Assembly: GCA_963715985.1 (NCBI GenBank)
Contig: CAVQSP010000007.1
Location: forward strand, 1 to 21,931
From: an uncultured Thermoleophilia bacterium
GTDB taxonomy: Bacteria; Actinomycetota; Thermoleophilia; UBA2241
Direction: 5' to 3'
DNA: 21,931 nucleotides
Under the pieces are notes generated by a model. The model saw nothing but the letters and a program-made list of their open reading frames with translations. It made no database searches and was not told the origin of the DNA. A program made the translations under genes and the position numbers. Shown here piece after piece: positions 1,045 to 2,433 of the stretch (positions are counted from its first letter, which is position 1; each line of letters opens with the position of its first letter).

Positions 1045-2433
1045 ATGGAGACACAGTACCCGACCCGCATGGGCGACGGTTCGCTGACCCGCATGACGCG
1101 CAGCGAGCTGCGCGCGGAGCTCGAAGAGGGCACTCTTGCGGCGGCGAGCCGGGCCAAGGTGCCGCCGCTGTCCGCGGAGGAGCTCGACCACCTGCTCGAG
1201 ATCTGGGCGTCGCCGGCCAAGTTCTCCGCCGTCGACATCGGCGACGAAGTCGTGCTCACCTACGACGGCTCGGGGTCCAAGACGGTCGGCACGCGCACCC
1301 AGGACCTGCTCATCTACGAGCAGATGTTCGGGGCCGACTCCGTCGAGCTCGGGCACGTCGACTACTCGTTCAAGGCCATCCGGACCATCCTGCCGTTCGA
1401 GGCCCAGAACATGAAGGACGCGCAGGCGGTGCTGACGGTGCCGGTGATGTACGGGGCGATGCCCAATCTGGGGCTGTACTCGAAGCCCGACGGGCCGGCG
1501 CCCAACTGGTCGGAACTGCTGCCGCTGGCGCGGGTGGACGAGGCGCGGGCGGCTCAGGAGGAGGCGGTCGGGTACGCCGTCGAGGACATGGTGAAGACCG
1601 CCGACGCGCTGTGGGAGGCGGGCGCCGACGGCATCGACTTCGACACCGCCGGCGCGGCGGGCGACGGCGACTTCCTGGCCACGCTCCTCGCAATCGAGCG
1701 GATCCGCGCGTCCCACCCCGACATGGGCATCCAGGTCGGCATGGCCGGCGAGTTCGTGCTCGGGATGCACGGCCAGCTCGAGTACGACGGCGTGCGCCTG
1801 GCCGGGCTCTGGCCGCGCGGGCAGATGGAGCTCGTGCGCCGCGCGGGCGCGACCATCTACGGTCCGGCGATCACCGTGAACACGCGCCGGACGGGGGCGT
1901 GGAACATCGCCCGTGCGCTGACGCTCGTCAAGCCGTGCATGGAGGTGGCCGAGATCCCCGTGCACATGAACATCGGCATGGGGGTCGGCGCCGTCCCCAC
2001 CACCAGCTACCTGCCGCTGGACGCCGTGGCGCGCGCCTCGCGCGCCACCGTCGACATCCTGCGGCTGGACGGCTTGTAGGTCGGCGGCGGCGACCCTCTC
2101 GGGATGCCGTGTGCCCACGCGACCGCCTCGGGGATGTGCGGGATGCGCGCTGCTGGAGATCTGGTGGCGCGCATGCAGATCACTCGGGGGATGCGGATCG
2201 GCGAGGCCAAGGCGTACGTCGCCGAGCGACTCGGGGTCAGCCCCGCCGACCTCTCCGATCCCATCGCCATGGAGGACGTGCGCCGGGAACGGCAGCTCGG
2301 GCGCATCACGACCTTCGAGATCAGCTACCCCACCCAGTCGAGCGCCATGGAGGCCAAGTTCAGGATCGCCGAACTGCTGGATCTGCCGATCAACTGCGTG
2401 CAGCGCTTCCGGCAGCACGCCGGGCTCGCGTGA
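1045..2433 (+). CDS. mtbB: Dimethylamine:corrinoid methyltransferase (MtbB family), 462 aa, with in-frame amber codon 2077-2079 predicted to encode pyrrolysine
   Basis: SD AGGAG precedes ATG 1045. N-terminal YPTRMGDG, ELGHVDYSFK, YGAMPNLGLY and DFDTAGAAGDGDF motifs are present. [34 protein letters not shown] reads through in frame into ORF 2104..2433 and matches the MtbB Pyl context as recalled (DG.-O-.G.GDP.GM). Confidence 0.93.

What the first reader, a model, noticed from the sequence alone, without database searches (positions are those of the whole stretch)
1045..2433. Pyrrolysine-encoding MtbB in a high-GC bacterium
Seen: a single in-frame TAG (2077-2079) splits a continuous 462-codon MtbB, with conserved motifs immediately on both sides. 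Known: MtbB carries catalytic pyrrolysine at this site. Pyl is mainly described in methanogens plus some Firmicutes and Deltaproteobacteria. Inference: this host has an expanded genetic code. GC content and promoter style hint at an anaerobic actinobacterium, but taxonomy is not established here.
Basis: partly seen in the sequence, partly recalled or inferred. Interest (0 to 1): 0.85.

Follow-up and report, generated by a model that had tools for sequence, protein, structure and literature searches.

The report
Pyrrolysine MtbB paralog in soil actinobacterium
This is an intact gene for a dimethylamine-type methyltransferase whose internal TAG "stop" almost certainly codes for the rare 22nd amino acid pyrrolysine; the trait is already reported for this group of uncultured actinobacteria, and the open question is what this divergent copy, one of eleven in the genome, acts on.

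Summary
Confirmed, but not new as a trait. TAG 2077-2079 is codon 345 of a 462-codon MtbB (TIGR02368 above cut-off). It aligns with the TAG of Methanococcoides MtbB and is TAG in 24 of 27 related loci; none shows a sense codon. dN/dS is about 0.09 on both sides of it. The genome has pylBCD, pylT(CUA), pylSn and pylSc (pylB frameshifted as assembled) and 23 pyrrolysine-site methyltransferase genes (11 mtbB, 10 mttB, 2 mtmB). The host is Actinomycetota, probably Thermoleophilia; PylSn occurs in 73 of 79 sampled genomes of its family. Expressed pyrrolysine mttB/mtbB in Actinobacteriota is published (PMC10805028), and this scan has already noted the trait several times in this genome and in others. 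TAG stays a common stop (about 18% of genes), so decoding is ambiguous. Two leads remain. (1) Leucine before a pyrrolysine TAG is always the rare TTG (16/16 sites, against 0/41 before terminating TAG), followed by a conserved PYLIS_2 region; the scan also saw this context before. (2) This paralog belongs to an expanded clade with altered barrel loops and usually follows a Pyl-MttB and a non-Pyl MttB, so a substrate other than dimethylamine is possible (about 30%) but untested.

The parts
1045..2433 (+). mtbB, 462-codon Pyl-type dimethylamine-methyltransferase-family gene, intact
   Evidence: TIGR02368 461 bits over cut-off 369; PF09505; AlphaFold TIM barrel, pLDDT 91.8
2077..2079 (+). in-frame TAG, codon 345, the pyrrolysine codon
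   Evidence: same column in 24 of 27 related loci incl. Methanococcoides codon 356; TAG in 14 of 14 close orthologs; residue 345 lies in strand E343-346 of the model
2074..2076 (+). rare Leu codon TTG directly before the Pyl TAG, candidate 5' context signal
   Evidence: TTG at 16 of 16 distinct Pyl sites with Leu at -1 in this genome (mtbB 10, mttB 5, mtmB 1); 2.7% of Leu codons genome-wide; 0 of 41 Leu codons before terminating TAG
2077..2176 (+). Rfam PYLIS_2 region with reduced synonymous change
   Evidence: RF02509 78 bits; synonymous difference 0.08 in codons 346-363 and 364-381, the two lowest of 25 non-overlapping windows, median 0.20; folding energy not better than shuffles, z -0.94
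1031..1035 (+). AGGAG, likely ribosome-binding site 9 nt before the ATG
   Evidence: read from the sequence; function inferred
1..1027 (+). 3' part of a non-Pyl MttB-family gene, the most constant neighbour; frameshift near 645-650, likely an assembly error
   Evidence: PF06253; ortholog adjacent in 15 of 16 loci, directly upstream in 14; contigs of relatives lack 2 bases here
2504..3860 (+). class III aminotransferase (PRK07046 type, closest solved chain 5YKR); frameshift near 3310
   Evidence: intact ortholog L036; relatives lack 1 base at 3310-3313; downstream of the ortholog in 7 loci
5693..8567 (+). two further non-Pyl MttB-family genes (first one frameshifted near 6000, second one divergent)
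8660..9950 (+). lysine 2,3-aminomutase (kamA), frameshifted near 9190; start coordinate approximate
   Evidence: C-terminal part on TIGR03820; intact ortholog L036 582 bits over cut-off 525; within 7.5 kb of the ortholog in 6 of 9 informative loci
10010..11797 (+). RamA/AcsV-like reductive activator of corrinoid proteins
   Evidence: Fer2 + three RACo domains; NF040756 and TIGR04270 below cut-off
11991..16662 (+). five tandem EamA-type transporter genes
   Evidence: three scanned, all PF00892; the other two judged from their translations
16996..19102 (+). GSA-aminomutase-like class III aminotransferase (Kat-like; label recalled, from no call) and 3-keto-5-aminohexanoate cleavage enzyme (Kce; scanned part lacks its N-terminus)
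   Evidence: NF052387 323 bits on the partial protein, cut-off 382

Best explanation
The gene makes a full-length 462-residue MtbB with pyrrolysine at position 345. Shown here by sequence: one conserved in-frame UAG, selection on the protein on both sides of it, and the genes for Pyl synthesis (PylBCD), charging (split PylSn + PylSc) and decoding (tRNA-Pyl, CUA) in the same genome. UAG also still ends about 18% of genes, so the code is ambiguous, not reassigned. Inferred: the cell favours insertion at the methyltransferase sites through local context (UUG just before the UAG, and the constrained PYLIS_2 region after it). Inferred from the known chemistry of MtmB and MttB: Pyl sits on a core strand of a TIM barrel, its imine binds a secondary methylamine, and the methyl group passes to the Co(I) of a corrinoid protein encoded elsewhere in the genome. 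The RamA-like protein in the window would reactivate that protein, and the methyl group would enter the Wood-Ljungdahl pathway. Dimethylamine is the single most likely substrate (about 55-60%), another secondary N-methyl amine about 30%.
For: TAG alignment and conservation; dN/dS 0.088 and 0.091; pyl genes on C13 at 551,949-560,053; tRNA folds as a cloverleaf with CUA in the loop. The system is family-wide: PylSn in 73 of 79 genomes, PylSc over cut-off in 33 of 36 genus genomes, pylT in 35 of 40, intact PylB in 31 of 41, mtbB in 76 of 80 with one TAG in every listed match (361 matches not listed). Two near-complete genus genomes, G031 and G061, lack both PylSn and mtbB. TAG stop share: 18.8% of 2673 genes here, 34.0% (36/106) in Pyl-positive G007, 25.0% (29/116) and 34.9% (29/83) in G031 and G061; no excess of back-up stops after TAG. 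TTG context. TIM-barrel model; best matches are the MetH N-terminal domain (Z 17.9, rmsd 3.4, 247 aligned) and a Methanosarcina methyltransferase 4AY7 (Z 17.5). About 20 corrinoid-protein hits and an acetyl-CoA synthase domain.
Against: No protein-level evidence: Pyl incorporation, expression and activity were not tested. pylB is split by a frameshift in this assembly. PMC12626013 (passages) shows that pyl genes alone do not prove a working system. No corrinoid gene was found on contigs C7 or C10. The PYLIS_2 region folds no better than shuffles, and PMC13663744 (passages) states that Pyl suppression needs no insertion element. The dimethylamine assignment rests on family membership only; this paralog is 47-48% identical to archaeal MtbB and differs in barrel loops.
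Confidence: 0.93

Rival explanations
1. Pyl is inserted, but the enzyme demethylates a secondary N-methyl amine other than dimethylamine. It would be the last step of a three-tier cascade (non-Pyl MttB for the quaternary amine, Pyl-MttB for the tertiary, Pyl-MtbB for the secondary) on one carbon skeleton, such as N-methylated lysine or a methylated diamine or omega-amino acid, which then goes to the neighbouring transaminase or to lysine fermentation.
For: The genome already has a canonical-looking mtmB-mtbB-mttB-corrinoid cluster at C14:682-698 kb. Seven of the nine full-length G000 paralogs in the tree fall in a separate clade (support 100) of deep, separately conserved orthogroups. That clade lacks an 11-residue loop after strand 1 and the Glu of the (L/F)ETPP loop, has a longer C-terminal loop, and varies at the end of strand 2. 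Conserved gene order Pyl-mttB, non-Pyl mttB, Pyl-mtbB (Pyl-mttB within 3 kb in 12 of 15 informative loci). kamA, kce, kamDE and kdd are in the genome. A Bacillota MtbB subclade also lies beside lysine-fermentation genes (6 of 49 loci of at least 7 kb).
Against: The Bacillota lysine-linked MtbBs are not sister to the window's clade and keep the Glu that it lost, so the link is convergent or accidental. kamA is near the ortholog in only 6 of 9 informative loci and the transaminase in 7. The window protein keeps archaeal-like GHxDYSFK and MPNxGLY motifs. The 12-of-15 Pyl-mttB partner is not found in this assembly (best hit 62%). Methylamine and quaternary-amine methyltransferases cluster often anyway. 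All three proven Pyl proteins act on methylamines (PMC13080624, abstract and start of introduction).
Confidence: 0.3
2. The gene is a normal Pyl-type mtbB, but this strain has lost Pyl synthesis (the pylB break is real), so UAG terminates unless Pyl is scavenged.
For: pylB is in two frames at C13 about 552,680.
Against: The assembly is full of one- and two-base breaks (four or more in this window; relatives lack the extra bases). PylB is intact in 31 of 41 genus genomes, and the other split copies (G013, G016, G021) are split at different positions. Twenty-three Pyl-site genes are retained.
Confidence: 0.04
3. The TAG is a nonsense mutation or a sequencing error, or it marks two separate genes.
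For: The assembly has errors; two other in-frame TAGs in the genome (a multiheme cytochrome c and an aconitase X) are not shared by relatives. A GTC, not a start codon, follows the TAG, but an ATG at 2104 opens a 109-codon ORF.
Against: TAG at the same column in 24 of 27 loci from three phyla and in all 11 paralogs; equal dN/dS on both sides, and the 8 codons between TAG and that ATG are conserved; the TAG cuts the barrel at a core strand.
Confidence: 0.02
4. TAG is reassigned genome-wide (to Pyl, as in the archaeal code of Kivenson et al. 2025, or to a standard residue).
For: tRNA with CUA anticodon present; such a code exists in archaea (cited in PMC13695967, passages).
Against: About 480 genes end in TAG, as often as in Pyl-less relatives; pylD and three mtbB paralogs end in TAG; the two in-frame TAGs outside methyltransferases that I checked are not conserved.
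Confidence: 0.01

Closest known systems
MtbB, dimethylamine:corrinoid methyltransferase of Methanosarcinaceae (NCBIfam TIGR02368, Pfam PF09505)
   Same: Full-length match above cut-off; single in-frame TAG in the same column as Methanococcoides MtbB codon 356; DG(L/I)-O-(V/I)GxGDPLGMP motif; PYLIS_2 region.
   Different: 47-48% identity; 11-residue deletion after strand 1, loss of the Glu in the LETPP loop, longer C-terminal loop; no corrinoid gene beside it; 11 paralogs; substrate untested.
Pyl-encoding mttB and mtbB of Actinobacteriota MAGs, Stordalen Mire (Ellenbogen et al., PMC10805028; passages read)
   Same: Same phylum, same gene families, same amber codon; that paper reports their expression and names RBG-16-64-13 among the most active methylotrophic genera.
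   Different: The passages read give one sentence, with no pyl-gene inventory, paralog count, stop-codon use or codon context. Whether this genome belongs to the same genus was not established; the figure and supplements were not seen.
Bacterial split PylSn + PylSc system (Desulfitobacterium type); 81 bacterial genomes incl. two Actinobacteria in Guo et al., PMC9630628 (passages read)
   Same: Separate pylSn and pylSc, pylBCD, pylT; UAG still a frequent stop, as noted for D. hafniense in PMC1976440.
   Different: Here the trait is nearly family-wide (73 of 79), and pylSc lies 2.8 kb away on the opposite strand from pylBCD-pylT-pylSn.
Olavius algarvensis delta-1 symbiont pyrroproteome (Zhang and Gladyshev, PMC1976440; passages read)
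   Same: A bacterium with Sec and Pyl and several mtbB paralogs (6 mtbB, 2 mttB).
   Different: This genome has 23 Pyl-site genes (11 mtbB, 10 mttB, 2 mtmB). That paper found no common RNA structure. I did not survey later records, so no claim of a record.
Rfam PYLIS_2 (RF02509), from Theil Have et al., PMC3639795 (passages read)
   Same: 78-bit match starting at the UAG.
   Different: The model covers only the 3' side; the UUG codon 5' of the UAG is not part of it.

Membership tests
MtbB (TIGR02368 / PF09505) | Full-length score above curated cut-off | tested here: met
   461.2 bits vs 369.1, residues 1-457; Pfam 555.7 bits
MtbB (TIGR02368 / PF09505) | Single in-frame UAG at the family's Pyl position | tested here: met
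   Same column as Methanococcoides MtbB codon 356. M. barkeri MtbB itself was not aligned; its position 356 is recalled.
MtbB (TIGR02368 / PF09505) | Dimethylamine:corrinoid methyl transfer activity | not testable with these tools
   Needs an enzyme assay; loop differences leave it open
MtbB (TIGR02368 / PF09505) | Cognate corrinoid protein (MtbC) available | tested here: inconclusive
   About 20 corrinoid-protein hits in the genome, none on C7 or C10; the cognate one is not identified
Pyl methylamine methyltransferases (MtmB, MttB) | TIM barrel with Pyl at the barrel core | tested here: inconclusive
   Model is a TIM barrel with residue 345 (modelled as Lys) in strand E343-346; no residue-level superposition on MtmB or MttB was obtained
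Bacterial Pyl system (PylSn + PylSc class) | pylSc and separate pylSn | tested here: met
   316 bits vs 178 and 125 bits vs 51
Bacterial Pyl system (PylSn + PylSc class) | tRNA-Pyl with CUA anticodon | tested here: met
   ARAGORN C13:555126-555198; cloverleaf
Bacterial Pyl system (PylSn + PylSc class) | pylC and pylD | tested here: met
   317.9 vs 248.3 and 199.5 vs 150.05 bits
Bacterial Pyl system (PylSn + PylSc class) | Intact pylB | tested here: inconclusive
   Whole profile covered, but in two frames (304 + 126 bits); intact in 31 of 41 genus genomes
Bacterial Pyl system (PylSn + PylSc class) | Pyl actually present in the protein | not testable with these tools
   Needs mass spectrometry
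Genome-wide TAG-to-Pyl code (Kivenson et al. 2025) | TAG no longer used as a stop | tested here: not met
   483 TAG terminators among 2677 genes called; share like Pyl-less relatives
Rfam PYLIS_2 | Covariance-model score above gathering threshold, starting at the UAG | tested here: met
   78.1 vs 36 bits, model 1-100

The most novel reading that the evidence does not exclude
The expanded, loop-altered MtbB clade of this actinobacterial family has turned pyrrolysine chemistry to new substrates. The window's enzyme would remove the last methyl group from a larger secondary amine (for example N-methyl-lysine or a methylated diamine) at the end of a non-Pyl MttB / Pyl-MttB / Pyl-MtbB cascade, which would be the first Pyl enzyme not acting on a simple methylamine. 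Alongside, UUG-UAG plus the PYLIS_2 region would be a real site-specific insertion signal in a bacterium that keeps UAG as a stop in about 18% of its genes.
Probability: 0.3. Interest if true: 0.75.

Novelty: new member of a known kind. Interest (0 to 1): 0.38.

Why it matters
As found, it confirms that a widespread family of uncultured soil, wetland and sediment actinobacteria uses pyrrolysine and carries many amber-interrupted methyltransferase genes that a table-11 annotation would cut short. These bacteria may compete with methanogens for methylamines. Two open questions become testable with it. First, how a bacterium tells a Pyl UAG from a stop UAG: PMC12626013 says no targeted insertion mechanism is known, and the UUG-before-UAG rule, shared by three non-homologous gene families, is a one-codon reporter experiment. 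Second, whether pyrrolysine catalysis extends beyond mono-, di- and trimethylamine.

Tried and rejected
No solved MtbB by sequence (0 hits). Fold searches returned generic TIM barrels; MtmB and MttB were not among the rows listed, which does not show that the folds differ. No tRNA gene lies in the window. Non-methyltransferase Pyl proteins: a screen gave 64 TAG sites with coding-like continuation, against 100 for TGA, mostly explained as adjacent in-frame genes. I checked the two best candidates: the aconitase X TAG is absent from matches in 13 of 13 genus genomes that have the gene, and the multiheme cytochrome TAG from matches in 41 of 41; both rejected. Back-up stops after TAG: not enriched. 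TAG depletion: not seen. G004 was first taken as a Pyl-negative control (17.5% TAG), but it carries TAG-containing mtbB genes and is dropped as a control. One origin for the lysine-fermentation link of MtbB in Actinomycetota and Bacillota: not supported by the tree (FastTree, 104 rows, two frameshifted G000 paralogs left out by the length filter; no formal clade test; the slower tree did not finish). Direct join of contigs C10 and C7: no overlap found; they are only collinear with relatives. Expression: RNA-library contigs cover the gene, but at about 89-97% identity and as contigs, so transcription of this gene is not shown. Host class by DnaA: only 2 of 120 listed hits carry an organism name, Coriobacteriia (77%) and Thermoleophilia (72%), so it supports the phylum only. 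One close ortholog (L038, 89%) comes from a record titled Deltaproteobacteria; this is left unresolved here. PMC11264602 held none of the terms sought. No complex was predicted and no sensitive profile search of all proteins was run.

Full report
Observation. Window 1045-2433 (+) reads from ATG to TGA with one internal stop, TAG at 2077-2079, codon 345. With TAG read as pyrrolysine it is a 462-residue protein that matches TIGR02368 over residues 1-457 at 461 bits (cut-off 369) and Pfam Dimeth_Pyl at 556 bits. The window is the whole 21,931-base contig C7 of a 4.35-Mb, 70% GC genome in 22 contigs, 88.8% complete and 7.3% contaminated.

Is the TAG real and at the Pyl site? A scan of species-representative genomes gave 27 related loci. 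In 24 of them a TAG falls in the same alignment column, including two Methanococcoides MtbB (codon 356) and five Bacillota proteins. The other three are truncated or frameshifted and could not be assessed; none shows a sense codon. Against 13 close orthologs dN/dS is 0.088 for codons 1-344 and 0.091 for codons 346-460, so the part after the TAG is under the same protein-level selection. Rfam PYLIS_2 matches 2077-2176 from its first position (78 bits). Raw reads of the source genome were not available. Contigs of four public runs were laid on 1-4600: three listed contigs span the TAG, and none of the 40 differences shown lies in it (895 not shown). The same call shows that relatives lack the extra bases at the frameshifts near 645-650 and 3310, which points to assembly errors in neighbouring genes.

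Decoding machinery. Contig C13 carries pylB-pylC-pylD-pylT-pylSn on one strand (551,949-556,558) and pylSc 2.8 kb further on the other. PylSc, PylSn, PylC and PylD pass their cut-offs. ARAGORN calls tRNA-Pyl(CTA) at 555,126-555,198 and also a tRNA-Sec; the tRNA folds as a cloverleaf. pylB is split by one frameshift, while 31 of 41 genus genomes have it intact, so an assembly error is likely but not shown. The genome holds 11 mtbB, 10 mttB and 2 mtmB genes with TAG at their Pyl motifs.

Host and spread. Of the 16 loci at 87-98% identity, 11 come from records titled Thermoleophilia, 3 Actinomycetes, 1 Actinomycetota and 1 Deltaproteobacteria, and several flanking genes of those loci match this genome at 82-88% DNA identity. 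The only named DnaA hits are actinobacterial. So the phylum is well supported and the class probable. In a sample of 400 genomes of the class, PylSn is in 73 of 79 of the host's family, 9 of 61 of one other family, and over the cut-off in none of the other 260. mtbB is in 76 of 80 family genomes, with 5 or more matches in 60 (matches are not exact copy numbers), and every listed match has one TAG. Runs holding similar DNA are mostly wetland and sediment metagenomes, at shares below 0.5.

How is UAG read? With a self-trained coding model, TAG ends 503 of 2673 genes (18.8%, about 20 of them Pyl sites). Samples of 200 kb gave 34.0% in Pyl-positive G007 and 25.0% and 34.9% in G031 and G061, where neither PylSn nor mtbB was found. 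There is no excess of back-up stops. The code is therefore ambiguous, not reassigned. The Pyl sites do carry a mark. Where leucine precedes the Pyl TAG it is TTG at 16 of 16 distinct sites, across three non-homologous families (mtbB 10, mttB 5, mtmB 1). TTG is 2.7% of Leu codons genome-wide and precedes 0 of 41 terminating TAGs that follow Leu. In related actinobacterial loci it is 27 of 28; in Bacillota-type mtbB, 62 of 63 are TTG or TTA against 27% background. These sites are related, so the counts overstate independence, but the three families are not homologous. Synonymous change drops to 0.08 in the 36 codons after the TAG (median 0.20), although the region folds no better than shuffles. 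That selection acts on this context is shown; that it promotes Pyl insertion is inferred. I saw the pattern and then found that the scan had noted it in another genome (e1-6673227).

Structure and mechanism. No MtbB structure is in the PDB by sequence. The AlphaFold model from a 22-sequence alignment (pLDDT 91.8, pTM 0.92; residue 345 as Lys) is a TIM barrel with residue 345 in strand E343-346, by my count the eighth. Best matches are the N-terminal domain of cobalamin-dependent methionine synthase (Z 17.9, rmsd 3.4, 247 aligned), 4AY7 (Z 17.5) and BHMT (Z 16.4-17.0). By analogy with MtmB and MttB (PMC9842639, passages), the Pyl imine would bind the amine and present a methyl group to a Co(I) corrinoid. 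About 20 corrinoid-protein hits exist in the genome, none on C7 or C10. A RamA-like activator is in the window and an acetyl-CoA synthase domain on C11. These steps are inferred from established pathways.

Which substrate? The paralogs fall into two types. Those at C4 and C14 keep archaeal-like loops, and C14:682-698 kb is a cluster of mtmB, mtbB, mttB and corrinoid genes that looks sufficient for methylamines. The window's gene belongs to a second clade (support 100) with 7 of the 9 full-length G000 paralogs in the tree. This clade has lost an 11-residue loop and the Glu of the (L/F)ETPP loop and has a longer C-terminal loop. The window's orthogroup is highly conserved across species. It lies next to the same non-Pyl mttB in 15 of 16 loci and within 3 kb of one Pyl-mttB in 12 of 15 informative loci, usually with a divergent TetR-like regulator (label from the translation, not scanned); a transaminase follows in 7 loci and kamA in 6 of 9 informative ones. 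The window also holds kamA, five EamA transporters, a GSA-aminomutase-like transaminase and kce, and kamDE and kdd lie on C10. This suggests stepwise demethylation of one trimethylated amine, possibly methyl-lysine. A Bacillota MtbB subclade also sits beside lysine-fermentation genes (6 of 49 loci), but it is not sister to the window's clade and keeps the Glu. The downstream partners vary, and the window protein keeps the archaeal GHxDYSFK motif. I put a non-dimethylamine substrate at about 30%.

Comparison with what is known. Guo et al. list PylRS in two Actinobacteria (PMC9630628, passages; repeated in PMC11764691, passage). Ellenbogen et al. report that Actinobacteriota MAGs express Pyl-encoding mttB and mtbB (PMC10805028, passages). 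Several mtbB paralogs in one bacterium are known from the Olavius symbiont (PMC1976440, passages). PMC12626013 and PMC13663744 (passages) describe ambiguous UAG in Methanosarcina and no known targeted insertion mechanism. Nine searches showed no paper on the family-wide spread, the paralog expansion, the UUG context or methyl-lysine demethylation by these enzymes; I saw most results as listings only, the library lacks most subscription papers, and I read no supplements. Earlier notes of this scan reached the same verdict for other mtbB and mttB copies in this genome and in relatives.

Verdict. It is a new member of a known kind, already reported for the phylum and already noted by this scan. 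Interest 0.38, carried by two testable leads: the codon context and the possible new substrate.

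Noticed in passing
window 2074-2079; all Pyl sites of G000: Rare TTG codon before every Pyl TAG that follows Leu (16/16), never before terminating TAG (0/41); the base before the Pyl TAG is G at 20 of 21 distinct sites.
   Followed up: yes
L045, L048, L106, L107, L109, L110: A Bacillota subclade of Pyl-MtbB lies beside lysine-fermentation genes (kamA and/or kamDE-kdd-kce), mostly with one type of non-Pyl MttB, unlike the other loci, which mostly sit in canonical methylamine clusters. A candidate methyl-lysine demethylation pathway in its own right.
   Followed up: partly
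model of window 1045-2430: The predicted MtbB fold is closest to the homocysteine-methyltransferase barrel (MetH, BHMT), MtaA-like 4AY7 and UROD; MtmB and MttB are not in the top 50. Pyl lies in the last barrel strand, where BHMT and MetH have zinc-binding cysteines (recalled, not tested).
   Followed up: partly
G000:C13 551,949-560,053 (L022): pylSc is separated from pylSn by a radical SAM gene and a corrinoid gene and is on the opposite strand; pylD itself ends in TAG, 70 bases before pylT, a possible feedback point.
   Followed up: no
window 16996-18267: The transaminase ends in TAG followed at once by TGA, and the EamA gene 15739-16662 ends in a TAG in frame with it; tandem stops are not enriched genome-wide, so probably chance.
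   Followed up: partly
window 4529-5194 (-): HigB/HigA-like toxin-antitoxin pair inserted in the island (from the translations; HigA frameshifted); among the related loci only L036 has the HigB match.
   Followed up: no
window 11800-11950: A short repeated stretch between the RamA-like gene and the first EamA gene (visible as repeated peptides in the translations).
   Followed up: no
window 11991-16662: Five tandem EamA transporter paralogs between the corrinoid activator and the transaminase-kce pair.
   Followed up: no
G000:C10 1-39,000 (L056, L057): The reverse of C10's start is collinear with the region upstream of this island in relatives: more mtbB/mttB genes, an agmatine-deiminase-like gene, an amine-oxidoreductase-like gene and ABC transporters, next to dnaA-dnaN-recF-gyrB.
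   Followed up: partly
G000:C11 81,094 and C3 about 97,800: Single in-frame TAGs in a multiheme cytochrome c and an aconitase X, not shared by relatives; errors, or recent mutations that Pyl read-through might tolerate.
   Followed up: yes
G000: Five non-Pyl MtmB-family genes and roughly fifty MttB-family genes, an unusually large methyltransferase set.
   Followed up: no
window 19340-21931 and G000:C12 71,582-73,606: The GAF-GGDEF gene at the contig end has an 86% identical second copy on C12; a paralog or contamination.
   Followed up: no
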